From SAR86 cluster bacterium SAR86B (lineage in GTDB: Bacteria > Pseudomonadota > Gammaproteobacteria > Magnimaribacterales > D2472): DNA of 64,000 nucleotides. The notes under the pieces are model-generated. The model had not been told where the DNA came from. It ran no database searches and worked only from the letters and a program-made list of their open reading frames with translations. Below, piece by piece: positions 14,794 to 57,934 of this stretch. The position numbers and the translations under genes are program-made. The DNA is taken from contig CAJJCW010000001.1 of NCBI GenBank assembly GCA_905182885.1, positions 439,256 to 503,255 of the forward strand, written 5' to 3'. Numbering within the stretch: position 1 is the first letter of the stretch; each line of letters starts with the position of its first letter.

Positions 14794-17093
14794 TTAAAAT
14801 CTTGCGCTTAAAGAGACTCCAAGCATTAAAGGAGGTCCCGCTACATAAGTTGGTAATCCAAGAACATCTCCACCAACGTTACCACCATCAATTAAAAACT
14901 CTTCATCCATTATATTTTTAAAGTAGATTGAGGTACTTACGTTCTCTGAAATGGCTACATTTACATTTAGGTTTAGTAAGCCATAACCTTCTTGATAGGT
15001 ATCTAGATCATTACTTTCTTCAAAATAAACATCATCTTGGTAGGTATAAGCAAGAATATAGTTAGCCATGCCTCTATCTAATGAGATCCCAATAGAGTAG
15101 TTAGATTCAGGAGCAAGTCTCCAAGTATTTCCAGCATAGTCAAAATCCTTATCATCAATTGTATTTTGTCCAAGCTTCGCATTTTGATAGCCGTAAGAAC
15201 CGAATATTTTGACTGAATCAAAAATTACATAATTCCCATAAAACTCATAACCATCTATTGTTGCTGTTTCCATTACTGAGTATGAAGTAAACCCAGTATT
15301 ATAGTTAAGCTGCGCAACAGTATAATTTGAAAAGTCGTAGCTAAATATAGCTCCAGATAGGAATAACTTACTATCAACATAGTTAAAACCAAGATCCTGA
15401 GATTCTATTGTTTCAGCAGGGGTAACTCCTGTATAACTTACATAAGGACTTATCCTTCCTTCTGAAGAGGTGATATAAAAAGATAAGCTATCTGAATAGT
15501 TGTAAACACTTGATAGTTTTAACAAAGGCTCACCTTCATCTTTATGTGAATTTTTTTGCTGAAGAACGGCATCCTGACATGTGCCTGTTACTAGAGGCCT
15601 ATTACATTCTTTTGCATCAAAAACAACAGCTGTATCATTTGAAGAGTCTCTATAACCAACAGTAAAGCTAAGGTCATCAGTTAAGTGGTATGTAGCATCT
15701 ACATAAAAAGATGATGAATCTTGTGATTCAGTTTGAACTTTAGGTTGAATATAGGGACTAACGTCAACTGGAAGGTTGTAAATTGATCCATCTGGAAGAG
15801 GTACTGGAATTGTATTGAAGGGATTATTCTGCAATGTAGAGGCAAAGAGAGATCTTAATTGTTGAATTGGGAAGTTATCTCCATAAACATTGCTAGAAGA
15901 AAATGCACCTCTTCCACTTTGCAAAATCGACAGCAATCCATTGGCTGCTGCAAATTGCCCATCAAATGTTAGAAAAGCTAACAGATAGGGCTCAGCAAAT
16001 TCAATGCCTAGGTAATCATACGTTTCTTTATCTGTCTTAGTGTAACCAACCATTAGATCTAACTTATCATTGCTAAATTGGTATTGGGCTTCAAAGCCAG
16101 AAAGGTCGGCATTATTAGTTTTACCCGCTTCCATAATATTTAAATAAGAGCCGTCAGTATCAATAAAGCTAAAGGTATTTGACTGAGTATCAAAGAAACT
16201 CAACGAAGCAGAAGAGTTTTTATTAATAGAGTAATTCAAAAAATATTGCTGAGTTAGCATTTCTCTATCAGTTTTAGAGTCTTGAGTATTTCTAAAATCA
16301 ACTTCGCCATATGGTGATCTATCCTGATTTTCTGAGAAAATGTAAGCACTCTTATATCCAACACCTGGCAGTTTGTTATTTTCTTGGTTGATAACTACGT
16401 CTAAAATGTCAAATTATCAGTAATTTCATTTGTGTAGCTTAATCTTAATGCTGAGACATTACCTCTACCATTTACATTATCACCATCACCTATATTTTTT
16501 GTATATCCTTTTATATCACTATTAAAAGTAGATATTCTCAATGAAGATGAGTCAGTTAAGGAGATATTATTAACACTTTGCAGATCTCTACTATTGAAAT
16601 TACCGAAGCCCATCGAAAGAGAGCCATAAGTAGAGCCTAGTTCAGCCTTATTTGTAACAACATTGAATGCTCCAGCCGCAGAATCAACTCCGAATGTAGA
16701 TGGTTGTGGTCCTTTTAAGATTTCCACTCTAGTTAAGTCATACAAAGCAAAAGAGGACATAGTGGTTGATGACATTGTTAAACCATTCATAAATCTACCA
16801 ATTCTACTAACTAAGAAACCTGAATCAGCACCAACTCCTCTTATTGAAAGACTTGGATTAATAACATCCTCTTCTTGAACGGTAAAATTTGGAACATAAT
16901 AACTAAGCTGACCTAGCTCAGTAATTTTTTGGTCCTCCATGAAGTCTTCGTTATAAAGATTCATAGTAGTCCCAATATCAAGGATATTTTTCTCTGTCTT
17001 TTCTGCAGTTACTATTACTTCCTCAACATTCTGTTGAGCTGAAAGCACTATAGACATTGAAATACATACTGCTAGTAGATAATTAGTTTTCAT
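14794..17093 (-). CDS. TonB-dependent outer-membrane receptor, split by a frameshift
   Basis: ATG at 17093 (MKTNYLLAVCISMSIVLSAQQ signal). The plug contains VEILKGPQPSTFGVDSAAGAFNVV. The C-terminal ...LGVSLSARF ends in an aromatic residue. The frame of ORF 14794-16260 stays open upstream to ~16400 and joins ORF 16401-17165 with one base change at ~16405-16415 (...ITDN|FDILDVVINQ...). Confidence 0.85.
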
Positions 17094-17207
17094 AAAATAG
17101 TTATTAGTTAGAATCGGGAAATTATAGTCCCTATTAAAAGCATATAAAATTGTTTTTTTTAGCACATAAAGTTTTGCTTAATAATCAATGTTGAGTATGA
17201 TTTAGAT

Positions 17208-17690: not shown

Positions 17691-18497
17691 CTCTGACAGC
17701 TATCCACAAAAAAAAGTTGCTCTTGTATTGATTACCACCTTTGTGATTAATGTTTTACATTTTTTGCATTCAAGTCCTTCTCTCCCATATGCATTAAGCT
17801 CGAATTTAAAATAACCAGGACTTCCGTCTGCAGAATAAAAATCTTTTAGAGTTGTGCCTCCAACCTTAATTGCAGCATTTAAAATTTTCTTTGCAGAGTT
17901 AGTAATTTTTTTACAATCCTCAATACTTAAATCAGATGCAATTCTATTAGGATTAATTTGAGCAAGATATAAACTTTCAGATGCATATATATTTCCAATT
18001 CCAACGACATTTTTTTGGTTCATTAATAAGCTTTTAATATTTATTTTAGATTTAGCAGTTATTTTATGAAGATCTATAGGGTTAAAATCTTTAGATAGCG
18101 GCTCCGGACCAAGGTTTTTTATTAGCCTATGCTCATCTAGTTTGTCTGCTAGATGAATCGACCCAAACCTTCTAGGGTCGTTATAGACAATCTTTTCTTC
18201 ATCAAAAATAAATTCAGCATGATCATGCTTTAAAAAAAAATTGTCATTATTTTTAGAAATCCTGAAGCTTCCAGACATTCCAAGATGAAGAATAATATTA
18301 ATATTATCTAAATGAAATATGATGTATTTAGCTCTTCTGCTAATCTTATTAACGGGTTGATTTTTTGTTAATAATTCAAAGTTCTCAACGACTTTCCAGC
18401 GTAGATTTCTATTATGAATTTTTGTACTTTTTAAAGTGGACTGACTGAATTTATTAATAGCCCTGACGGTCGTTTCAACCTCTGGCAATTCGGGCAT
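17687..18497 (-). CDS. mutM: Formamidopyrimidine-DNA glycosylase, probable frameshift in the last few codons
   Basis: The N-terminal PELPEVE and an H2TH region are present. The zinc finger starts CKKCK...RATFFCG* and lacks its second CxxC. One base removed near 17700-17706 restores ...FFC-x2-CQS* ending at 17687. The track ORF ends at 17700. Confidence 0.85.
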
Positions 18498-18500
18498 ATG

Positions 18501-19835
18501 TTAGTTTAGTAAGCTATTTATACTAATAATTTCGCTTGGACTTATAGTTCCGGATGCTAACAAAAGCCTAAGATTTGAAAGTATGTAATCGTACTTTGCA
18601 TTAGAAAGATTTTTTTCTGCACTATAAAGGTTCTTTTCAGCTTGAAGAAGATCAACTACATTTCTAGTTCCAACTTTATATCCAACTTGAGTTGCTTCCA
18701 ATGCGCTAGTTGCTGACTTAACAGCTTGTGTCTGAGCGGTAACATTCGCTACTAAAGTTAAGACATTTGAGTACTGAGATCTAACTTCTTGAATAACTTT
18801 TCTTTCTGCAAACAATGTATTTTCAGTTGCTTGATCATATTTTAAATATGCCTGCTTTCTTTTTGAGCTAACAGCGCCACCTTGAAATAACGGCATACTA
18901 AATTGGATTCCAAAATTTCTTCTGCCAGTTATTGCTGGAACAGGAATTCCTTGACCGTTAAAATTTAAACCTTCGTAATTAAATTGATTTGTCTCAGATT
19001 CAGACTCTGTTCCAACTATGTCAATTTTAGGTAAATGATTAGAAGCAGCACTTCTTGCACTATTTTTTGCTGCCTTTTTTCTTAAATAAGATGCTTTAAG
19101 TTGAAAATTATTTGTTAAAGCAAGTTCTACCCATTTCTCTTTGGAGACAGGAGATGGATTGGAGACTACAAGAGTATCTCCAAGTTCACTGAGGCTAAAA
19201 ATCTCCCTTCCAATAAGGGCATTAAGCGCTTCCCTTGAGGAGAATAGCTTTCCTTCAATATTTATTCTTGACGCCTTACTAAGATCGAAAGCGAGTTGAG
19301 CTTCTTGCACTCCAGTAATGGCAGATAAGCCAACTTCAAATCTTTGTTGTGCCTGATCTAACTGCTTTTTAATTGCTTTTTCTTCAGAAATAGCCGCATT
19401 TAAATTATCTACTGCTCTTAAGACTCCAAAGTATAAATCCGCAGTTCTAACTAAAAGATTTTGTTGCTCATAAGCAAAATCTGCTTCAGCCGCGTCAGTA
19501 AGGGATCGAGCCTGTCTAAATTGAAACCATGTATCAAGCCTGAATAATGGCTGTGTAATTCTAGCCGAGGATGAAAATGAGTTGTATTGCTGTTGAAGCT
19601 GCTTGTCTTGGTAATATTCATTCCAATTGGTAGAGCCACTAAGAGTCAAGCTAGGCAATAAAGCTGCTCTTCCTTGAACTACAATTTCTTTATCGGCTAA
19701 ATAAGAATATTCAGCTGCTCTATAAGTAGGATCATTCTGGAGAGCCTCATTATAAATATCTAATAAATTTTCAGATGAAACTGGTGTGATAAATAGAATA
19801 GAAAGTAGTATTTTTAAGTTAGTAGCTTTAGTCAT
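18501..19835 (-). CDS. tolC: TolC-family outer-membrane efflux channel
   Basis: 444 aa with a signal peptide and two tandem OEP repeats. It has typical TolC N-terminal sequence (LLDIYNEALQNDPTYRAAEY...). Confidence 0.85.
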   Translation of the reverse strand: MTKATNLKILLSILFITPVSSENLLDIYNEALQNDPTYRAAEYSYLADKEIVVQGRAALLPSLTLSGSTNWNEYYQDKQLQQQYNSFSSSARITQPLFRLDTWFQFRQARSLTDAAEADFAYEQQNLLVRTADLYFGVLRAVDNLNAAISEEKAIKKQLDQAQQRFEVGLSAITGVQEAQLAFDLSKASRINIEGKLFSSREALNALIGREIFSLSELGDTLVVSNPSPVSKEKWVELALTNNFQLKASYLRKKAAKNSARSAASNHLPKIDIVGTESESETNQFNYEGLNFNGQGIPVPAITGRRNFGIQFSMPLFQGGAVSSKRKQAYLKYDQATENTLFAERKVIQEVRSQYSNVLTLVANVTAQTQAVKSATSALEATQVGYKVGTRNVVDLLQAEKNLYSAEKNLSNAKYDYILSNLRLLLASGTISPSEIISINSLLN

Positions 19836-19861
19836 AATTATATTTTAACCTATTTGTTGCA

Positions 19862-19880
19862 ATGTTTGCAGTGTAAACAT
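19862..19880. promoter_or_regulatory. Candidate TetR-type operator upstream of tolC
   Basis: ATGTTTGCAGTGTAAACAT lies 27 nt upstream of the tolC ATG. It is the exact reverse complement of 53835-53853 in the TetR/RND intergenic region (20 nt identical including one flanking A). It is near-palindromic (ATGTTTnCAnTGnAAACAT). Confidence 0.6.
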
Positions 19881-20028
19881 TAAATTACTTCGATATATAA
19901 TGCGTTTGTATATTTTTTTATATATTTCTTAGAGTAGAATAAGGCTTAAAAGTTCAAAGGGTAATTATTAATGAAAAAAGCTATAGAGTCTATTTCTAAA
20001 AGCTTTAATATATTTAAGGCAGGATAGA

Positions 20029-21921
20029 TTGGCTAATAATTCATATGATTCTAATGCTATTGAGGTCTTATCTGGCTTAGATCCTGTCAAAAAAAGACCC
20101 GGGATGTATACCGATACGTCAAATCCCAATCATTTAATTCAAGAAGTTTTAGATAATTCAGTAGACGAGGCCTTGTCCGGGCATTGTACAAATATCAAAA
20201 TATCCCTTTTAAGAGATGGCTTTATTCAAGTATCAGATGACGGCAGGGGAATGCCGGTAGATGAACATCCTGAGCACAAAGTCTCTGGTGTAGAGCTCAT
20301 ACTTTGTAAACTTCATGCAGGTGCTAAATTTTCCGGTGATGACTATAGCTTTTCAGGAGGCCTTCATGGAGTAGGCGTCTCTGTTGTTAATGCCTTATCA
20401 GATGAGCTAGAGGTCAGAGTTAAAAGAGATTCAAAAGAACATCTGATTACTTTTAATAATGGAGACAAGGCTAGTGAGTTAGCTGAGGTTGGAGAGGTGG
20501 GCTTAAGAAATTCAGGAACCACGATCAAATTTAAACCCAACCCAAAATACTTTGAAACCAATGAAGTTCAGGTTAAGCAACTAAAACATCTATTAAAAGC
20601 TAAAGCAGTTTTGTGCCCAGGGCTAACGATTGATTTCCATGATGAGAAGAAGTCTGAAAAAGTTAAATGGTTTTTTGAGGATGGTTTAAAGAGTTATTTA
20701 GAAGAGTCTGCTGATGGCGTAGAGCTCGTTCTTGCAGATTCAATTGTTTGCTCTAAAAAAGCAGATATTCAAGAGCTAGAGTTCGTTATTAATTGGTCTC
20801 TTAGACTTCCTAAGGATAAATTAAATGAAACCTATGTTAATTTAATACCAACATTGCAAGGTGGCTCGCATCTCAACGGATTTAAATCGGGTCTCTTGGA
20901 TGCATTAAAAGAATTTTGTGAATATAGAAACCTGCTACCAAAGGGTTTAAAAATAAATGCCGAAGACGTTCTAAGTAACGCAATTTTTATTGTCTCTTCA
21001 AAATTACAAAATCCTCAATTTGCCGGTCAAACAAAAGAGAGGCTTGATTCAAAAGATCATATGTCTTTTGTCTCTAATTCAACTAAAGATATTTTAAGCA
21101 TATGGCTCAATACGCATACTGAAGAGGGCGAGAGAATTGCCGAACTAGCAATTATGTCCGCTCAGACGCGTGCAAAGGTTTCTAATATAGTCGAAAGAAA
21201 GAAAAGTTTTAGAGGGCCAGCACTTCCTGGAAAGTTATCTGATTGTAATAGCCAGGATCTTAATGAAACAGAGTTATTTTTAGTAGAGGGAGATTCGGCT
21301 GGAGGCTCAGCAAAGCAAGCTAGGGAGAGATCCTTTCAGGCAATCATGCCCCTAAGAGGAAAAATATTAAATACATGGGATTTAGAAAGTGCTGAGATAA
21401 TTAAATCTCAAGAAATAAAAAATCTTTCTACTGCAATTGGCGTTCTACCTGGAAATAATGACCTATCTTCATTAAGGTATGGAAAAATTTGTATTCTTGC
21501 TGATGCAGATTCAGATGGGTTGCATATAGCAACTTTGCTATGTGCTTTATTTTTAAGGCACTACAGGTCACTTGTTCAAGAGGGACGAATATATATTTCT
21601 ATGCCTCCTTTATATAGGATCGATTGCGGTAAGGATGTTTTGTACGCGCTTGATAATACTCAAAGAGATCAGATAGTTGAAGAGTTCAAAAATAAAAAAG
21701 GAAAACCTAAAATAAATATTCAGAGGTTTAAAGGTCTTGGAGAAATGAATCCGCCGCAGCTAAGGGAAACTGTTATGGATCCAGATACTAGGCAACTAGT
21801 TCAATTATCAATCAGCCCCACTGATAATGCCAACTCAATGATGGATTTATTACTATCTAAAAAGAATGCACCCGCAAGAAAGGAGTGGCTTGAGAGAAAG
21901 GGAGCGCTAGCAAAAATATAA
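20029..21921 (+). CDS. parE: DNA topoisomerase IV subunit B
   Basis: 630 aa with a TTG start. It is co-linear with E. coli ParE from memory ([44 protein letters not shown]). It lacks the GyrB insertion and is followed directly by parC. Confidence 0.9.
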
Positions 21922-52177: not shown

Positions 52178-52234
52178 CTGTATCTATATATTTTGGCAGT
52201 ACTATTTATATTTCCTTTCAGTATAATTCATTAC

Positions 52235-52699
52235 ATGACAATACAAGATAACTTTAGAACAGCTATGAGAAATTACATCTACTCAGTAAGTGTAATGTCA
52301 ATGATGGATACTGATGGAACTCCTTATGCAATAACAGTTTCTTCAGTAACATCAATATCCATGGAGCCACCAAGCTTGCTAGTCTGTATTAATAAAAGCG
52401 CAAGAGTGCATGATTCAATAAAAGAAGGATCTGATTTATGTATTAACCTACTAACAAAAGATCAAGAAGAAATTTCAAACACTTGCTCAAGCGAATCTCA
52501 ATTTGATAAAAGATTTGATGATAAAAACTGGAATATGCAAAATATTCCCTATTTAGAGAATGCTCAAGCGAATATTTTCTGTAAAGTGGACAAGCTAATT
52601 TCTTATCACACTCATTCTATAGTGATAGCCCATGTATTAGATGCTAGTAGTAAAGAAAGCATGAATACATTAGTCTATGCTAATGGTAAATATGCATAA
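52235..52699 (+). CDS. Flavin reductase-like (FMN-binding split-barrel) protein
   Basis: The pattern FRTAMRNYIYSVSVMS...AITVSSVTSISMEPPSLLVCINK is typical of the flavin reductase domain. I prefer the ATG at 52235 over the track start at 52193. Confidence 0.7.
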   Translation: MTIQDNFRTAMRNYIYSVSVMSMMDTDGTPYAITVSSVTSISMEPPSLLVCINKSARVHDSIKEGSDLCINLLTKDQEEISNTCSSESQFDKRFDDKNWNMQNIPYLENAQANIFCKVDKLISYHTHSIVIAHVLDASSKESMNTLVYANGKYA

Positions 52700-53159
52700 A
52701 TCTTTATTAATTCTTTTGACCTCCATAATAAGCTCAGCTATTTATAGTTCTGATCATGCACATTCAGAATCTAATAAAGTACAGTGCGCTAATAATTCAG
52801 AGGTTTTTCTTGTATCGCCAAAAAATGGTTTTAAAACAACTTTGTCAGAAGTCAAAGTTATTTTTGGATCTCGTAATGTTGACATTACTCCAGCTGGAAA
52901 AATAGTAGAGTCCTCAGATTGCTCCATAACTTCGGGGCATCACCATTTAATCATTGATAGCGCTTTACCAAACCTTAAAAGACCAATTCCATCTTCAAAA
53001 AGCTACATTCATTTTGGTGGCGGACAGACTGAAGCAATAATCTCCTTAGACCCAGGCAAGTATTCTCTTCAACTGTTATTAGGTGATTATGCTCATGTTC
53101 CTCATGAGAAACCAGTTTTCTCGGAGATAATAGAAATAGAAGTTCTTAGCTCTCAATAA
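52692..53159 (+). CDS. Secreted DUF4399-like protein
   Basis: It has a signal peptide, and the GHHHLIID motif resembles DUF4399 as I recall it. The ATG at 52692 overlaps the previous stop (ATGCATAA). Confidence 0.5.
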   Translation: MHKSLLILLTSIISSAIYSSDHAHSESNKVQCANNSEVFLVSPKNGFKTTLSEVKVIFGSRNVDITPAGKIVESSDCSITSGHHHLIIDSALPNLKRPIPSSKSYIHFGGGQTEAIISLDPGKYSLQLLLGDYAHVPHEKPVFSEIIEIEVLSSQ

Positions 53160-53201
53160 TTCCAGTAAGTACTCTTTCTAGATAGGCTGGTAGATCGGAG
53201 C

Positions 53202-53762
53202 TTATTCTTCTTGTAGTGCCCATAGGACCAAATTCTTTAGCGTAAACGTCACCTCAGTTATCGATTGTTTTCTAAGGATGCCAACCATCCCATGAAGCAA
53301 AGCCCATACAGTTATGGATTTCCCAGCAAGAATATCTTCATCTTTATCTTTTAGGAATGAAGAAAGGTTGAGCACTAAACTTTCAAAGGTCTTGTTTGCG
53401 GTCTCTACTAATTCAGGATGCTGTGAAAAATCACCAACAGCCGTTCCAAACATCAAATCATAGGTATTTGCATTTTGTAAACCAAAATCAATATAGTTTT
53501 TAGAAGACTGAATAAAATCTTTAAGAGTTAATTTATCTGATTCGACAAATACAGCTTTATAAAGTTTGTTAAAGCCCTCTGCAGCAACTGCCGCATAAAC
53601 CTCTTCTTTTGTTTTAAAATGTCTATAAGGAGCTGTTTGAGAAACATTACTTTCTTTTGCTAGAGATCGAATGCTTAACTTGGTATATCCATCTCTTTCA
53701 CATATAGTGCAAGCATACTTTATAAGCTCTTCTTTTAAATTCCCGTGATGATATGATTTCAT
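53202..53762 (-). CDS. TetR/AcrR-family transcriptional repressor (C-terminus possibly frameshifted)
   Basis: 186 aa with the N-terminal HTH SIRSLAKESNVSQTAPYRHFKTKEEV. It is divergent from the RND pump genes. An alternative open frame (..AKEFGPMGTTRRISSDLPAYLERVLTGIIES*) continues to ~53146. Confidence 0.85.
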   Translation of the reverse strand: MKSYHHGNLKEELIKYACTICERDGYTKLSIRSLAKESNVSQTAPYRHFKTKEEVYAAVAAEGFNKLYKAVFVESDKLTLKDFIQSSKNYIDFGLQNANTYDLMFGTAVGDFSQHPELVETANKTFESLVLNLSSFLKDKDEDILAGKSITVWALLHGMVGILRKQSITEVTFTLKNLVLWALQEE

Positions 53763-53805: not shown

Positions 53806-53853
53806 ATGTTGACACTGCATACATTTTAGTTAAGATGTTTACACTGCAAACAT
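53806..53853. promoter_or_regulatory. Two tandem 19-bp operator-like repeats overlapping a candidate pump promoter
   Basis: The repeats are ATGTTGACACTGCATACAT (53806-53824) and ATGTTTACACTGCAAACAT (53835-53853), with starts 29 bp apart. TTGACA (53809-53814), a 16-nt spacer and TAAGAT (53831-53836) look like a sigma70 promoter reading toward the MFP gene. Confidence 0.6.
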
Positions 53854-53888
53854 TAATTTCTTTGAGGATTAAAGTCAACAAAAATAAA

Positions 53889-54869
53889 ATGAATATAAAT
53901 CTTTCAAAATATATAAATCTAATTTTTATTAGCATCTCTTTTAGCTCTTCAGTTTCTGCTTTAGAGGTTTTAGAAGTCAAAATGCTTAATGAGTACTCTG
54001 TAACTAGAGAGTTTCCTGGTAAATTACTTCCAATAGAGCAATCTAAATTAGCTTTTGAAATCCCAGGCAAGATTAGATCCATAAATGTCGATATTGGCGA
54101 TTCGGTTATTAAAGGGCAAGTTCTTGCCAGCCTAGATAGCAGAGAAGCTCAGGCTCAATTAAATCAAGCTAAAGCTAGATATGATTTGTCTGCCCAGGTA
54201 TTAAATAGATATAAAGACTTAAGGTCACAGGGGCATATATCCTCTCAAGATTTAGATAAGGCTAGTTCTGAAGAGTTAGTTTCTAAATCTCAATATGATT
54301 TTTACAAAGTAAAGCTTGAGCAAACCCAATTGCTGGCACCTTTCAATGGAATTATCCAGGATAGATATTTAGATACAGGATCGGTAATAAATGGAGGAGT
54401 TCCAATTTTAGAGGTTCTAGACTCTAGATATATAGAAGCTCACGTATCCATACCTACTGACTATATATCAAAGATTAATGTTGGAGAGAGTTACGATTTT
54501 AAAGTTGAAGATAGTCTAGTCAAAGCAAAACTTCAAAGGTTAGCTCCAATGTCTCCTGGAGGCTCGAGTAATAGATTAGCAATTTTCAGATTTAATACCT
54601 TTTTTAGCCCAGGCTCTATAGTCACATTAAAAATGAGCATAAAAGAGAGCCAAAGAGGTACTTGGGTTCCAATCAAATCGTTATCACAATCAGAGCAAGG
54701 CATTTGGGCTATTTATACTATTAATGAAAAAAGAATAGTTACTAGAGATTTGGTCAATATTATTTACTATGAAGATGAATATGCATTTGTTAACGGCACT
54801 TTAAATAATGGTGATTTGGTTGTTCTAGGTGGAGCTAAAAAAACCATTGAAGGTAAGTTCATAGATTAA
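53889..54869 (+). CDS. RND efflux pump periplasmic adaptor (membrane fusion protein)
   Basis: ATG at 53889 (MNINLSKYINLIFISISFSSSVSA signal/anchor). It has lipoyl-like and coiled-coil hairpin regions (EAQAQLNQAKARYDL...) and a beta-barrel domain. It is followed by the RND gene 2 nt later. Confidence 0.85.
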   Translation: MNINLSKYINLIFISISFSSSVSALEVLEVKMLNEYSVTREFPGKLLPIEQSKLAFEIPGKIRSINVDIGDSVIKGQVLASLDSREAQAQLNQAKARYDLSAQVLNRYKDLRSQGHISSQDLDKASSEELVSKSQYDFYKVKLEQTQLLAPFNGIIQDRYLDTGSVINGGVPILEVLDSRYIEAHVSIPTDYISKINVGESYDFKVEDSLVKAKLQRLAPMSPGGSSNRLAIFRFNTFFSPGSIVTLKMSIKESQRGTWVPIKSLSQSEQGIWAIYTINEKRIVTRDLVNIIYYEDEYAFVNGTLNNGDLVVLGGAKKTIEGKFID

Positions 54870-54871
54870 TA

Positions 54872-57800
54872 ATGAAATTTATAACTCTTTTCATAGAAAG
54901 ACCTAGAATATTATTTCTAACTCTCTCTTTTATTCTTCTAGCGGGAATTTCTTCAGTTTTATCTGTGCCTATTCAAGAAAATCCAGAGTTAGCTCAAAGA
55001 TGGGGAGGCGTTCGAGTTTTTTATCCAGGCGCATCACCTGAAAGAATTGAGACCCAAGTAATAAATGACCTAGAAGTAAAGTTAAGGGAAGTTGAAGAAA
55101 TTTTAGAGCTAGAATCGATCATCTCCCAAGGTTTCGCAACTGTTGTTGTTGAGTTTGAGCAAAGTGTAGATCCAGAGCTTATAGAGCAAACATGGTCGAA
55201 AGTTCAAGATAAGCTAGATCAAATTAGAGCTCCCCCTGGAGCAACCATACTTCTTGACAGAAGCAGCGGACCCCCTATAACGGTTCAATATGCTATATCT
55301 TGGAATGGTGAAGGTGAGATACCTTTAATCATGATGTCCAGACTAGCAGATCAATTAAAGAGAAAGTTAAGTTCAATAGGACAGTCTCATGGAACGGCTA
55401 TTTTTGGAGCTGCAGAGGAAGAAGTACTAATCGAAGTAAATTCAGCAAAGATGTCATCTTTAGGACTCACCTATCAAGATATTTCAAGAGCAATACAATC
55501 CTTGGATAGCAAAAAACCTGTTGGAGTTTCATCAGACGTAAACTCAGAATTCTTAATTAGGCTAAAAGATAATATTCAAAGTATTCAAAAGATTTCAGAA
55601 ATACCAATAAAGGTTATTAATGAGGCAGAAATAATCCAGTTAAAAGATATTGCAGAGATATCAAAAAAACCAGTTTCTCCAATCGAAGACATTTTTTTAT
55701 ATAACGGGCGAGTTGTTGTATCGGTAGCTGCAACAGGGGCAATGTCTCAAAGGGTGCAAGACTTTGTTAGCAGAGCGACATTGGTTGTTGATGAAATGAG
55801 ATCAACCATTCCCGAAGAGATTTCAATAGATCTGATTTACGATGAGTCTGCATATACTTCGAAAAAGTTTAATGAGCTTATTAAAAGTTTTTCATTGGCT
55901 ATATTCTTCGTCTTAGGATTGAGTTTATTTTTCTTAGGGCCAAGGTCTGCATTAATTGTAACGTTAATTCTTCCTTTTTCTATTTGCCTGGTGTTAGTGG
56001 GATGTAAATTTATTGGCTTGCCTTTGCACCAGACGTCAATTACAGGAATTATTATTGCTTTAGGTTTATTGATTGATAACGGCATTATTGTTGTAGAGGA
56101 TTACAAGTATAGAAGGTCATTAGGCCTGCCTATAAATGATGCAATTTCTGAGACTTTAAAACATCTCATAACGCCATTGGCAGCAGCTACCGGCACTACC
56201 GTATTTTCATTCCTTCCTATTGTGACAGGAGAGGGCTCAAGTATTGAGTTCGTTGGCGGTCTTGCTATTACTGTAATTTTGTCAATTATATCTTCCCTGG
56301 TTTTAGCACTCTTGATGGTTCCTGTGCTGATGAGTTATATGGAAAAAATACCCTACTTTCAGAATGTTGATATCGCCAAAGAAGGCTATAGAAATGAGAA
56401 GATTCTTAATAAATACAGAAAATTCCTAACTTGGGCTTTCGCAATACCCAGAAGAGCAATTCTTATTTCAATAACATTCCCAGTTTTAGGATTTATGCTT
56501 TTTAGCACACTGCCCAAAGATTTTTTCCCTTCACAAGATAGAGACATGTTCAGGGTAAATATAGAATTGCCGTCAAATGCCTCTTCCTCACAAACCTTAG
56601 AAAAGTCAAAGTTGATAAGACAGCAATTAATAGACAGCAATCTAATAGAGATAGAAAAGGACTATTGGTTTATTGGCAGAAGAATGCCTAGGGTATTGAT
56701 GAATGTAGTGGGTGGTGAAGAAAAACAAGGTTCCAATAATGTTGCCCAATCCGTTTTTTATGCTAAAGATTTTAATCAAATGGTCAAAAATCTACCTGAA
56801 CTTTCGAGGAAGCTAGTTTCAAAAAATCCAGATACTATAATTATTGTTGATAGTTTCACTTCAGGGCCACCTGTATTCTCTGACATTAGCTATAAAATTT
56901 TTGGTGATGACCCTGATGTATTACTGCAGTTAGGTGAGGAGCTTGAGCTTATTATCAATAACGCTCCTGGAATCAGCACAACAATATCAGACTCCTCGCA
57001 ATCAAATACAAATATTGAGTTTGAGCTAGATAGTTCTAGTATTTCTCTATCAGGAAGAGATGCCAGTGCTTTGGTGGGAGAGTTATACGCAGCTAATAAT
57101 GGGATAATAGTAGGAACAATGCTGGATTCTAATAAAGAGATTCCAATTAGGCTCAAGGGGATCACTAACTCTAAAAATATAACTGGTAATACTGGGTTTT
57201 TAACCATCCCTTCAAGCGGAGGGATAGAATATCTAGATAGCTTTGGAAAAACTTCATTGGTTAATAAAATCTCAACTATCACAAGGCTAGACGGCAAAAG
57301 GGTAAATAATATTGAGGGATGGGTTTGGACTGGATCGCTTACTACGTCTACAGAGAACTTTGTTAAAGATAGAATTAAAGAATTCGAATCAAACTTGCCT
57401 ATTGGGTTTACTCTAAAACAAGCTGGTGAAGCAGAATCTAGGAATGAATCTCAAGCTTCTTTACTTTCCTCTACTTTTGTATTTTTGATATTAATAATTG
57501 TTGGTCTAGTCTTTGCATTAAATTCATTTAGAGAAACCGGGCTTATTTTATCTGTTGCCATCCTGTCAATGGGGCTATCTTTCTTGGGATTATTCGTTGG
57601 CCAGCAAAATTTTGGTTTTATAGCAGCAGTTGGAGCTGTAGGGTTAATTGGCTTATCAATTAATGACTCTATTATCGTGCTGTCTCATATAAAAGAAGAG
57701 GTAGAAAAAAAATCAACCTCAAAGGCTGAAATAGTAGAGATTGTTATCAGGTCAACTAGACATATTATAACTACCTCACTTACAACGCTTGGAGGCTTCG

Positions 57801-57934
57801 TTCCCTTAATGTTTACTAGTGTTTTCTTTAGGCCTCTCGCCTGGGGAATGAGTATTGGAGTTCTAGGTGCAACTATGACAGCTTTGCTTTATATACCAGC
57901 TATGTATATGGTCATGAAGAGAATTAAATACTAG
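54872..57934 (+). CDS. RND-family inner-membrane efflux transporter (AcrB/AcrD/AcrF family)
   Basis: 1020 aa with a 12-TM pseudo-duplicated architecture and two large periplasmic loops. Conserved TM4-region sequence GLLIDNGIIVVE is present. Confidence 0.9.
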   Translation: MKFITLFIERPRILFLTLSFILLAGISSVLSVPIQENPELAQRWGGVRVFYPGASPERIETQVINDLEVKLREVEEILELESIISQGFATVVVEFEQSVDPELIEQTWSKVQDKLDQIRAPPGATILLDRSSGPPITVQYAISWNGEGEIPLIMMSRLADQLKRKLSSIGQSHGTAIFGAAEEEVLIEVNSAKMSSLGLTYQDISRAIQSLDSKKPVGVSSDVNSEFLIRLKDNIQSIQKISEIPIKVINEAEIIQLKDIAEISKKPVSPIEDIFLYNGRVVVSVAATGAMSQRVQDFVSRATLVVDEMRSTIPEEISIDLIYDESAYTSKKFNELIKSFSLAIFFVLGLSLFFLGPRSALIVTLILPFSICLVLVGCKFIGLPLHQTSITGIIIALGLLIDNGIIVVEDYKYRRSLGLPINDAISETLKHLITPLAAATGTTVFSFLPIVTGEGSSIEFVGGLAITVILSIISSLVLALLMVPVLMSYMEKIPYFQNVDIAKEGYRNEKILNKYRKFLTWAFAIPRRAILISITFPVLGFMLFSTLPKDFFPSQDRDMFRVNIELPSNASSSQTLEKSKLIRQQLIDSNLIEIEKDYWFIGRRMPRVLMNVVGGEEKQGSNNVAQSVFYAKDFNQMVKNLPELSRKLVSKNPDTIIIVDSFTSGPPVFSDISYKIFGDDPDVLLQLGEELELIINNAPGISTTISDSSQSNTNIEFELDSSSISLSGRDASALVGELYAANNGIIVGTMLDSNKEIPIRLKGITNSKNITGNTGFLTIPSSGGIEYLDSFGKTSLVNKISTITRLDGKRVNNIEGWVWTGSLTTSTENFVKDRIKEFESNLPIGFTLKQAGEAESRNESQASLLSSTFVFLILIIVGLVFALNSFRETGLILSVAILSMGLSFLGLFVGQQNFGFIAAVGAVGLIGLSINDSIIVLSHIKEEVEKKSTSKAEIVEIVIRSTRHIITTSLTTLGGFVPLMFTSVFFRPLAWGMSIGVLGATMTALLYIPAMYMVMKRIKY

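What the first reader, a model, noticed from the sequence alone, without database searches (positions are those of the whole stretch)
19862..19880. Exact remote copy of the RND operator upstream of tolC links the outer-membrane channel to the TetR regulon
Seen: ATGTTTGCAGTGTAAACAT lies 27 nt upstream of the tolC start codon. It is the exact reverse complement of operator copy 2 at 53835-53853, with 20 nt identical when one flanking base is counted, so read in the tolC direction it is the same word. It sits just downstream of a weak TACAAA-17-TAATTT promoter candidate. A chance exact 19-mer match between two specific intergenic regions in 64 kb is extremely unlikely. Inference: a single TetR-family repressor at 53202-53762 co-regulates the adaptor/RND genes and the unlinked TolC channel 34 kb away. 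That would define a complete tripartite efflux regulon from sequence alone.
Basis: partly seen in the sequence, partly recalled or inferred. Interest (0 to 1): 0.55.

Follow-up and report, generated by a model that had tools for sequence, protein, structure and literature searches.

The report
TetR operator upstream of SAR86 tolC
A 19-base near-palindrome just upstream of the outer-membrane channel gene tolC is a conserved binding site of the repressor type that controls a drug-efflux pump 34 kb away; this is a well-known kind of circuit, here in the abundant marine SAR86 bacteria, where the same site also precedes several non-efflux genes.

Summary
19862-19880 is the exact reverse complement of 53835-53853, and 20 nt match when one flanking base is included. 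A weight-matrix scan finds only three strong sites in the 64 kb window: this one and the two operators between tetR and the adaptor/RND genes.

The site is functional-looking, not chance. In 77 tolC loci chosen by TolC protein similarity alone, 73 carry the site (3 mismatches or fewer) 5-36 nt upstream of tolC. Shuffled upstream regions gave 2 of 3600. In several SAR86 lineages it abuts a clear TTGACA-N18-TNNAAT promoter, so it covers the -10/start region.

tolC and tetR-RND sites co-occur in the same genomes. The same motif lies next to TetR genes with the same DNA-binding signature in other phyla.

Three amendments:
- The regulon is wider than efflux. In SAR86 the site also precedes a diiron (AurF-like) oxygenase gene and small exported PAN-like protein genes.
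- tetR in this window carries a 1-nt deletion that removes the last helix. fpg and a TonB-dependent receptor gene are also frameshifted, so assembly error is plausible.

Verdict: a new member of a known kind; moderate interest.

The parts
19862..19880 (.). O(tolC): a single 19-bp near-palindromic TetR-type operator. It reads ATGTTTACACTGCAAACAT in the tolC direction.
   Evidence: Exact match to the operator at 53835-53853. It scores 31.9 of a possible 32.7 bits on the weight matrix. It is conserved upstream of tolC in 73 of 77 protein-selected loci.
19879..19884 (-). Candidate -10 hexamer (TTTAAT) of the tolC promoter. Its last two bases are the first two bases of the operator.
   Evidence: The same register occurs at both promoters of the tetR/RND intergenic region (TAAGAT|G and TAAAAT|G). 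It also occurs in SAR86 lineages with a clear TTGACA-N18-TNNAAT|G upstream of tolC (L083, L084, L086, L092, L108). For this window it is an inference, because the -35 is weak.
18501..19835 (-). tolC, the outer-membrane channel gene (444 aa).
   Evidence: Pfam OEP x2, E = 3e-59. TIGR01844 at 320 bits, above the cutoff of 225. An identical protein is found on 32 public contigs.
17700..18497 (-). fpg (mutM), 3 nt downstream of tolC on the same strand and probably co-transcribed. It carries a 1-nt insertion at about 17702 that truncates the C-terminal zinc finger.
   Evidence: ORF layout. tolC-fpg adjacency is conserved in all relatives. The indel is seen against three relatives.
19921..19940 (+). 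Second conserved block of the tolC-parE intergenic region (TATATTTCTTAGAGTAGAAT). It contains TAGAAT (19935-19940), the probable -10 of the parE promoter.
   Evidence: It is conserved across SAR86 lineages while the surrounding sequence diverges. Its role as the parE -10 is an inference.
20029..21921 (+). parE (topoisomerase IV subunit B), divergent from tolC.
   Evidence: Pfam HATPase_c, DNA_gyraseB, Toprim and DNA_gyraseB_C.
53806..53824 (.). O1 of the tetR/RND intergenic region (ATGTTGACACTGCATACAT). It covers the -35 of the adaptor/RND promoter and the -10/start region of the tetR promoter.
   Evidence: The two-operator layout is conserved in relatives with 83%, 72% and 63% TetR identity.
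53835..53853 (.). O2 of the tetR/RND intergenic region (ATGTTTACACTGCAAACAT). It covers the -10/start region of the adaptor/RND promoter and the -35 of the tetR promoter.
53809..53836 (+). Promoter-like site for the adaptor/RND operon: TTGACA-16-TAAGAT.
   Evidence: 10 of 12 consensus match.
53823..53850 (-). Promoter-like site for tetR: TTTGCA-16-TAAAAT.
   Evidence: 9 of 12 consensus match.
53146..53762 (-). tetR (TetR_N plus TetR_C_33/WHG type). As assembled, the ORF is 53202-53762 (186 aa), because a 1-nt deletion between 53252 and 53253 shifts the frame. The ancestral C-terminus is still readable in another frame, to the stop ending at 53146.
   Evidence: The AlphaFold model of the intact orthologue (pLDDT 88) places the lost residues in the last helix, residues 180-204.
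53889..54869 (+). RND periplasmic adaptor (membrane fusion protein, 326 aa).
   Evidence: Pfam HlyD_3 and HlyD_D23. TIGR01730 above cutoff. The ATG at 53835 listed by the ORF finder lies inside O2 and is not the start used in relatives.
54872..57934 (+). RND inner-membrane permease (1020 aa).
   Evidence: Pfam ACR_tran, E = 1.9e-113, full length.

Best explanation
19862-19880 is a real operator for the WHG-type (TetR_C_33) TetR-family repressor encoded at the adaptor/RND locus 34 kb away. The organism is a SAR86 gammaproteobacterium.

Proposed mechanism. A repressor dimer binds the 19-bp near-palindrome, which overlaps the end of the -10 element and the transcription start of the tolC promoter, and so blocks RNA polymerase. 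The same protein binds two copies of the site between its own gene and the adaptor/RND operon. There each operator covers the -35 of one divergent promoter and the -10/start of the other. When an unknown, probably hydrophobic, ligand binds the C-terminal domain, the repressor leaves all sites. The inner-membrane pump, its adaptor, the outer-membrane channel and the repressor itself are then induced together. fpg, 3 nt downstream of tolC, is probably co-transcribed. tolC has only one operator, so its repression may be leakier than that of the pump operon.

Wider regulon. In SAR86 genomes the same operator also precedes an AurF-like diiron oxygenase gene and two kinds of small exported PAN-like protein genes. 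The circuit is therefore a small multi-promoter regulon rather than a pure efflux regulon.

What is shown and what is inferred. Shown from sequence: the identity of the sites, their conservation, their position, their co-occurrence, and the link between motif and TetR subfamily. Inferred: binding, repression, ligand response, and the exact promoter in this window.
For: 1. Exact 19/20-nt identity with O2, and only three strong sites in 64 kb.
2. Unbiased conservation. In 77 metagenomic tolC loci picked by TolC protein similarity alone (76-95% identity, 58 distinct upstream sequences), 73 have a site with 3 or fewer mismatches, 5-36 nt upstream of the start codon. Controls gave 2 of 3600 shuffled upstream regions, and 0 of 1022 other 265-nt windows of the same loci with fewer than 5 mismatches. 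In 95-97% relatives, substitutions fall in the flanks and none in the 19-mer.
3. A collection-wide pattern scan of species-representative genomes found the motif in the tolC-parE spacer of 17 SAR86-type genomes (TolC identity down to 63%) and at tetR-adaptor-RND loci of 19.
4. Both sites occur in the same genome, and in two cases on the same contig about 30 kb apart: CAJXAZ01 (L026+L039), AG-422-O05 (L027+L095) and AG-404-N17 (L119+L093).
5. Promoter geometry. TTGACA-N18-TNNAAT, with the final AT being operator positions 1-2, lies upstream of tolC in L083, L084, L086, L092 and L108. The same register holds at both promoters of the window's tetR/RND spacer.
6. Link between motif and regulator. 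Outside SAR86, 24 of 40 pattern hits lie within 270 nt of a TetR gene. These genes are only about 26-39% identical overall but share the N-terminal signature YHHG[ND]L...SLR..A..VS[HQ][TA]APY[RK]HF. The recognition-helix region is invariant across SAR86 TetRs from 43% to 97% identity.
7. Position is tightly constrained relative to tolC (5-36 nt) but not relative to parE (90-173 nt).
8. Precedent. V. cholerae AtrR, a TetR-family repressor, represses vexRAB and the unlinked tolC (PMC10805010).
Against: - There is no experimental binding or expression evidence.
- In this window the -35 upstream of the proposed -10 is poor, so the exact promoter is uncertain.
- tetR as assembled here is frameshifted and lacks the last helix. 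If that is real, the operator would be unoccupied in this strain.
- I could not take a census of all TetR paralogues in a complete SAR86 genome, so a second repressor with the same specificity is not excluded.
- One lineage (L201, TolC 77%) lacks the site, and I could not check whether it also lacks tetR.
Confidence: 0.82

Rival explanations
1. The operator is real, but in this particular genome it is unoccupied. The 1-nt deletion in tetR removes the last helix, which is part of the dimer interface in TetR-family proteins. tolC, the pump and the other targets would then be constitutively expressed: a natural derepressed variant.
For: There is a 1-nt deletion between 53252 and 53253 relative to three relatives, and the old C-terminus is still readable out of frame. 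The model of the intact orthologue shows that residues 180-204 form the last helix pair, and all of it is lost. No database protein has this 186-aa sequence.
Against: The same window has other single-base frameshifts in conserved genes: fpg at about 17702 and a split TonB-dependent receptor at about 16260-16400. That pattern points to assembly or sequencing indel errors. The downstream tetR sequence shows no further decay.
Confidence: 0.25
2. The site is bound by a different transcription factor, for example another TetR paralogue elsewhere in the genome, rather than by the TetR encoded beside the RND genes.
For: Most SAR86 sites found (AurF-like, PAN-like and tolC genes) are not next to any TetR gene. 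No whole-genome census of regulators was possible.
Against: The only regulator gene consistently adjacent to the motif in SAR86 is this TetR, with two autoregulatory-looking copies in its own promoter region. In other phyla the motif again sits beside TetR genes with the same HTH signature. The window encodes no second protein with that signature.
Confidence: 0.07
3. The site controls the divergent parE-parC (topoisomerase IV) genes instead of, or as well as, tolC.
For: The site lies in the shared tolC-parE spacer. A consensus scan finds TAAACA-16-TATAAT on the parE strand, with its -35 inside the site.
Against: Distance to parE varies from 90 to 173 nt, whereas distance to tolC is 5-36 nt. 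A separate, deeply conserved block containing TAGAAT lies closer to parE, about 75 nt from the operator centre. At all other targets the site lies 15-50 nt upstream of the regulated start codon. Promoter-like matches in this AT-rich spacer are no more frequent than in shuffles (4 found against 2.8 expected).
Confidence: 0.06
4. The site is a chance match, a generic dispersed repeat (REP/MITE-like), or an RNA hairpin in the tolC leader.
For: The sequence is palindromic and AT-rich, and the genome has 35% G+C.
Against: - Chance expectation is 0.03.
- There are only three copies in 64 kb, and identity ends at 20 nt.
- Of the 79 SAR86-type occurrences found in genomes, 78 lie just upstream of one of five gene families; the remaining one precedes another adaptor/RND pair.
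- The predicted RNA fold is no better than shuffles (z = -0.44).
- There is no Rfam match.
- The site occurs in both orientations relative to tolC in different lineages, which fits a DNA palindrome and not a transcript element.
Confidence: 0.02

Closest known systems
Local TetR-family efflux repressors with palindromic operators in a divergent promoter region (AcrR/acrAB, TtgR/ttgABC, SmeT/smeDEF, QacR/qacA)
   Same: The regulator gene is divergent from the adaptor/RND operon. It has TetR_N and a ligand-binding domain. Palindromic operators overlap the -35 and -10 elements of both divergent promoters, which implies autoregulation.
   Different: Here the outer-membrane channel is unlinked (34 kb away) and carries its own copy of the operator. 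The operator is a compact 19-bp site (9-1-9), unlike the long-spaced TtgR/PmeR-type operator (AcrR and SmeT from my own knowledge). The protein belongs to the uncharacterised TetR_C_33/WHG subfamily; its closest solved structures are structural-genomics entries without known function (3on2, 3cjd, 1zk8).
Vibrio cholerae AtrR (VCA0767), a TetR-family repressor of vexRAB and the unlinked tolC (PMC10805010)
   Same: A TetR-family repressor whose loss raises expression of both an RND operon and the unlinked common outer-membrane channel tolC.
   Different: AtrR is not encoded next to the pump and acts above the local regulator VexR. The evidence for it is transcriptomic, with no operator defined in that paper. 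Here the local regulator itself appears to have the remote site. Homology between the two proteins was not tested.
mar/sox/rob control of tolC in Escherichia coli (my own knowledge of the family; review listed, PMC3617542, not read)
   Same: acrAB and the unlinked tolC are co-induced, so that all three pump components rise together.
   Different: That system uses AraC-family activators binding marboxes. It does not use a shared repressor operator.

Membership tests
TetR/AcrR-family repressor-operator system | N-terminal TetR-type helix-turn-helix domain | tested here: met
   PF00440 TetR_N, E = 3.8e-08, 33.4 bits against a cutoff of 24. The fold search returns TetR-family structures only.
TetR/AcrR-family repressor-operator system | All-helical C-terminal ligand-binding and dimerisation domain | tested here: inconclusive
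   PF13305 TetR_C_33 is present. The intact orthologue models as nine to ten helices, depending on whether the terminal pair (180-189, 191-204) is counted as one, with pLDDT 88. However, the window copy loses the last helix through a 1-nt deletion, which may be an assembly error.
TetR/AcrR-family repressor-operator system | Palindromic operator(s) overlapping the promoters of the regulator and its divergent target | tested here: met
   Two 19-bp near-palindromes overlap the predicted -35 and -10 elements of both divergent promoters. The layout is conserved in orthologous loci down to 43-63% TetR identity.
TetR/AcrR-family repressor-operator system | The protein binds the operator and is released by a ligand | not testable with these tools
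   This needs EMSA or footprinting and ligand screening.
Remote operator belonging to the same regulon (the claim for 19862-19880) | The site matches the regulator's own operators and is conserved at the orthologous position in relatives | tested here: met
   It is an exact match to O2. 73 of 77 protein-selected tolC loci keep it, against 2 of 3600 shuffles.
Remote operator belonging to the same regulon (the claim for 19862-19880) | The remote site co-occurs with the regulator gene in the same genomes | tested here: met
   Three species genomes besides the window have both. Absences cannot be scored because the scan was truncated.
TolC-family outer-membrane channel | Two OEP repeats and a family-level score | tested here: met
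   PF02321 in two stretches. TIGR01844 at 320 bits against a cutoff of 225.
Tripartite RND efflux pump | Adjacent adaptor gene and 12-TM RND permease gene, with an outer-membrane factor available | tested here: met
   TIGR01730 is above cutoff and ACR_tran covers the full length. TolC is unlinked. The substrate class is unresolved, because no NCBIfam subfamily or equivalog cutoff for the permease was reached.
Generic dispersed repeat (REP/MITE-like) | Many copies, without a fixed position relative to particular genes, and with similarity extending beyond a short core | tested here: not met
   There are three copies in 64 kb and identity ends at 20 nt. Genome-wide occurrences in SAR86 are confined to promoter-proximal positions of five gene families.

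The most novel reading that the evidence does not exclude
One WHG-type TetR repressor controls a SAR86-wide regulon of at least five promoters. The regulon couples a tripartite RND-TolC exporter to an AurF-like diiron oxygenase (followed by a beta-helix protein gene) and to two families of small signal-peptide-bearing PAN-like proteins. That would make it a dedicated sense-modify-export module for an unknown compound in one of the most abundant marine bacterial groups, which have very few regulators. In addition, the pairing of the YHHGNL...APYRHF DNA-binding signature with the ATGTTKACAsTGTAAACAT operator is conserved across phyla. It would give a ready recognition code for an uncharacterised TetR subfamily.
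Probability: 0.5. Interest if true: 0.55.

Novelty: new member of a known kind. Interest (0 to 1): 0.4.

Why it matters
SAR86 is uncultured, very abundant in the surface ocean, and has streamlined genomes with few regulators.

- A sequence-defined regulon shows which genes respond together. Here these are the pump, its channel, a diiron oxygenase and small exported proteins.
- It gives a concrete handle for metatranscriptomic tests and for heterologous ligand screening with the repressor and operator.
- It shows how a cell with an unlinked, shared TolC keeps channel supply matched to pump induction using a repressor, not an activator.
- It assigns an operator to an uncharacterised TetR subfamily (TetR_C_33/WHG) that is found in many phyla.

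The regulatory principle itself is not new.

Tried and rejected
It is present, but the -35 reads TACTAA in two of the three 95-97% relatives examined, L143 and L144. I prefer the -10 that overlaps the operator.
- **Plus-strand promoter-like site TAAACA-16-TATAAT, as evidence for parE control.** Promoter-like hits in this spacer are no more frequent than in shuffles, and parE has its own conserved block.
- **RNA-level explanations.** The fold is not better than shuffles and there is no Rfam hit.
- **Generic repeat.** Rejected by the weight-matrix scan and the repeat search.
- **Literature search for the motif.** Searching TGTAAACA/TGTTTACA together with TetR returned only unrelated hits and the long-spaced PmeR operator. 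Searching TetR_C_33/WHG returned one unrelated paper. The SAR86 + TetR/efflux search returned no paper containing SAR86 among the ten listed.
- **PDB searches for a characterised close relative of the repressor.** The sequence search and the fold search found only structural-genomics entries.
- **Look-up of the window's exact 186-aa TetR product.** It is not on record, so the frameshift could not be confirmed independently.
- **Worry about the abundant TolC-83% lineage.** No TetR of 68% identity or more sits on its megabase contigs. This is explained by TetR evolving faster than TolC: in AG-404-N17, TolC is 80% identical and TetR 62%.
- **Co-absence test.** I could not test lineages that lack both tetR and the tolC site. 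The single genome-collection scan was truncated, and the loci cover only 8 kb.

Full report
**Observation.** The 19-mer ATGTTTGCAGTGTAAACAT is at 19862-19880. Its exact reverse complement is at 53835-53853. With one flanking base the identity is 20 nt, 19861-19880 against 53835-53854. This is the only perfectly complementary pair among the 25 longest inverted pairs that the repeat finder listed. Similarity ends there, so this is a shared short word and not a duplicated segment. A third, diverged copy lies at 53806-53824. Dinucleotide shuffles give a mean of 0.03 matches at up to 3 mismatches, against six strand-hits observed. A weight matrix trained on independent sites scores the three window sites at 31.9, 31.9 and 21.3 bits; the next best score is 8.9.

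**Genes and organism.**
- 18501-19835 (-) is a TolC-family channel.
- It is followed 3 nt later by fpg, and it diverges from parE-parC.
- 53202-53762 (-) is a TetR_N + TetR_C_33 regulator. It diverges from an RND adaptor (53889-54869) and an RND permease (54872-57934).
- Source names of near-identical proteins, and the titles of related genome records, place the window in the SAR86 cluster. G+C content is 35%.

**The tetR/RND spacer.** Two operators lie in the same orientation, 29 bp apart start to start. The consensus scan finds TTGACA-16-TAAGAT reading towards the pump and TTTGCA-16-TAAAAT reading towards tetR. Each operator covers the -35 of one promoter and the -10/start region of the other. 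In both promoters the last two bases of the -10 hexamer are the first two bases (AT) of an operator. The two-operator layout is kept in protein-selected orthologous loci with 83%, 72% and 63% TetR identity. It is also kept in motif-selected loci down to 43% identity.

**Is the tolC site conserved?**
- *First look.* Two lineages, chosen only through their TolC proteins (82-83% identity), both carry the site while the flanks differ.
- *Unbiased test.* A metagenome scan with a TolC protein alignment returned 80 loci. Of these, 77 had enough upstream sequence, giving 58 distinct upstream sequences. 73 of the 77 have a site with 3 or fewer mismatches to ATGTTTACACTGTAAACAT, 5-36 nt upstream of the start codon. 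Three have a recognisable 5-mismatch version, and one (L201) has none.
- *Controls.* Shuffled upstream regions gave 2 of 3600. Among 1022 other 265-nt windows of the same loci, none had fewer than 5 mismatches.
- *Close relatives.* In the 95-97% relatives the substitutions lie in the flanks and none in the 19-mer.

**Genome-wide census.** I scanned the species-representative genome collection for ATGTTKACASTGYAWACATT. My own estimate is about 17 chance hits in 596 Gb at uniform base composition. I classified them by tblastn and Pfam.
- 79 hits are in SAR86-type genomes:
  - 17 in the tolC-parE spacer (TolC identity 63-97%);
  - 19 at tetR-adaptor-RND loci;
  - 29 lying 15-32 nt upstream of a 367-373-aa AurF-like diiron protein gene;
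  - 6 upstream of 94-96-aa PAN-domain protein genes;
  - 7 between a 90-aa PAN-like protein gene and a rhodanese gene;
  - 1 upstream of another adaptor/RND pair.
- Both small protein families have signal peptides. The oxygenase has two DEARH iron-binding motifs. In a complete SAR86 chromosome it is followed by a beta-helix protein gene.
- The site is therefore not a generic repeat. It marks a small set of promoters, and that set is wider than efflux.

**Co-occurrence.** tolC and tetR-RND sites are found together in three genomes:
- CAJXAZ01 (L026+L039);
- AG-422-O05 (L027+L095, on one contig);
- AG-404-N17 (L119+L093, on one contig, about 30 kb apart).

Many other genomes pair a tolC or RND site with an oxygenase or PAN site. 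Because the scan was truncated and required an exact pattern, absences mean nothing.

**Which protein binds?** In SAR86 the only regulator gene next to the motif is this TetR, and the sites there have an autoregulatory layout. Outside SAR86, 24 of the 40 remaining hits lie within 270 nt of a TetR gene. These come from Bacillota, Spirochaetota, Actinomycetota, Chloroflexota and several proteobacterial groups. The other 16 hits are about what chance predicts. These TetRs are only 26-39% identical overall to the window protein, yet they share the N-terminal signature YHHG[ND]L...SLR..A..VS[HQ][TA]APY[RK]HF. Within SAR86 this region is invariant from 43% to 97% overall identity. A conserved DNA-binding signature travelling with a conserved operator is the strongest available sequence evidence that this subfamily reads this motif. 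The closest solved structures are uncharacterised structural-genomics TetRs, and I found no paper on the motif.

**Mechanism at tolC.** In lineages with less AT-rich spacers (L083, L084, L086 = SAR86E, L092, L108) the tolC upstream region reads TTGACA-N18-TNNAAT, with the final AT being operator positions 1-2. This is the same register as at the two window promoters of the tetR/RND spacer. The operator therefore spans the end of the -10 and the start site, the classic position for repression by occlusion. In the window the equivalent -10 is TTTAAT (19879-19884, minus strand), but the -35 is weak. For this window the promoter assignment is an inference.

The site occurs in either orientation relative to tolC in different lineages, as expected for a DNA palindrome. 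Its distance to tolC is tightly constrained, while its distance to parE varies from 90 to 173 nt. A separate, deeply conserved block at 19921-19940 contains TAGAAT and is the likelier parE -10. The operator centre lies about 75 nt upstream of the transcription start that this -10 would imply. RNA-level readings are not supported.

**Caveat for this genome.** Orthologues of the repressor are 204-207 aa, whereas the window ORF is 186 aa with a different C-terminus. A DNA alignment shows a 1-nt deletion between 53252 and 53253. The ancestral C-terminus is still readable in another frame. An AlphaFold model of the intact orthologue (pLDDT 88) places the lost residues in the last helix, residues 180-204. 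From general knowledge of the TetR family, that helix belongs to the dimer interface.

The exact truncated product is not in the protein collection. The window also has a 1-nt insertion that truncates fpg and a frameshift that splits a TonB-dependent receptor gene. Indel errors in the assembly are therefore a plausible explanation. If the deletion is real, this strain would express the regulon constitutively.

**Comparison with known systems.** The circuit works like the local TetR-family efflux repressors (AcrR, TtgR, SmeT, QacR). What it adds is a remote operator at the unlinked channel gene. A TetR-family repressor that controls both an RND operon and the unlinked tolC has been reported in Vibrio cholerae (AtrR, PMC10805010), there by transcriptomics and without a defined operator. 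E. coli achieves the same coordination with AraC-type activators (my own knowledge). The finding is thus a new member of a known kind. What is new is the organism, the subfamily and its operator, and the wider regulon.

**Verdict.** My confidence that 19862-19880 is a functional operator of this TetR type acting on tolC is 0.82. Interest is 0.4.

Noticed in passing
window 53252-53253 (tetR, minus strand): A 1-nt deletion relative to three relatives shifts the frame. The ORF ends at 53202 (186 aa) instead of 53146 (205 aa) and loses the last helix. The exact truncated product is not in the public protein collection.
   Followed up: yes
window ~17702 (fpg) and ~16260-16400 (TonB-dependent receptor, ORFs 14794-16260 and 16401-17165): There are two further frameshifts in conserved genes. 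A 1-nt insertion truncates the Fpg zinc finger, and a frame change splits a TonB-dependent receptor into 254-aa and 488-aa ORFs. Together with tetR this suggests indel errors in the assembly, or ongoing gene decay.
   Followed up: partly
related SAR86 genomes, e.g. L135:4659-5800, L045:4861-6003, L029:4207-5369: The same operator lies 15-32 nt upstream of a 367-373-aa AurF-like diiron oxygenase gene in 29 SAR86-type genomes. In a complete chromosome this gene follows cobS/cobT-like genes and is itself followed by a beta-helix (NosD-like) protein gene.
   Followed up: partly
related SAR86 genomes, e.g. L065:3436-3819 (two sites), L031:1360-1700, L040:5736: The operator also precedes two families of small (90-96 aa) signal-peptide-bearing PAN-like protein genes. 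One of these families diverges from a rhodanese gene.
   Followed up: partly
L022, L041, L042, L044, L049, L059, L073, L076, L089, L107, L112, L125-L127, L131 and others: In distant phyla the same motif sits beside TetR genes that share the signature YHHG[ND]L...VS[HQ][TA]APY[RK]HF, although overall identity is only about 30%. This gives a candidate family-wide operator for TetR_C_33/WHG-type regulators.
   Followed up: partly
window 19921-19940: The block TATATTTCTTAGAGTAGAAT is conserved across SAR86 lineages in the tolC-parE spacer, more deeply than its surroundings. It contains TAGAAT and may be the parE -10 or another control element.
   Followed up: partly
L201 (metagenome contig MDTC01255065.1), upstream of tolC: This is the one SAR86 lineage (TolC 77%) that lacks a recognisable site upstream of tolC. 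Whether it also lacks the tetR-RND locus could not be checked.
   Followed up: no
window 52193-53159 and orthologous loci L001-L006, L024, L033: A flavin reductase gene and a DUF4399 gene are conserved next to tetR (order: flavin reductase, DUF4399, tetR, adaptor, RND) across SAR86, from 43% to 97% TetR identity. A functional link to the regulon is possible but untested.
   Followed up: no
L036:842 and L094:7277: In two gammaproteobacterial MAGs the site lies about 150 nt upstream of tolC rather than 5-36 nt, with an intervening stretch that may encode a small ORF or an N-terminal extension.
   Followed up: no
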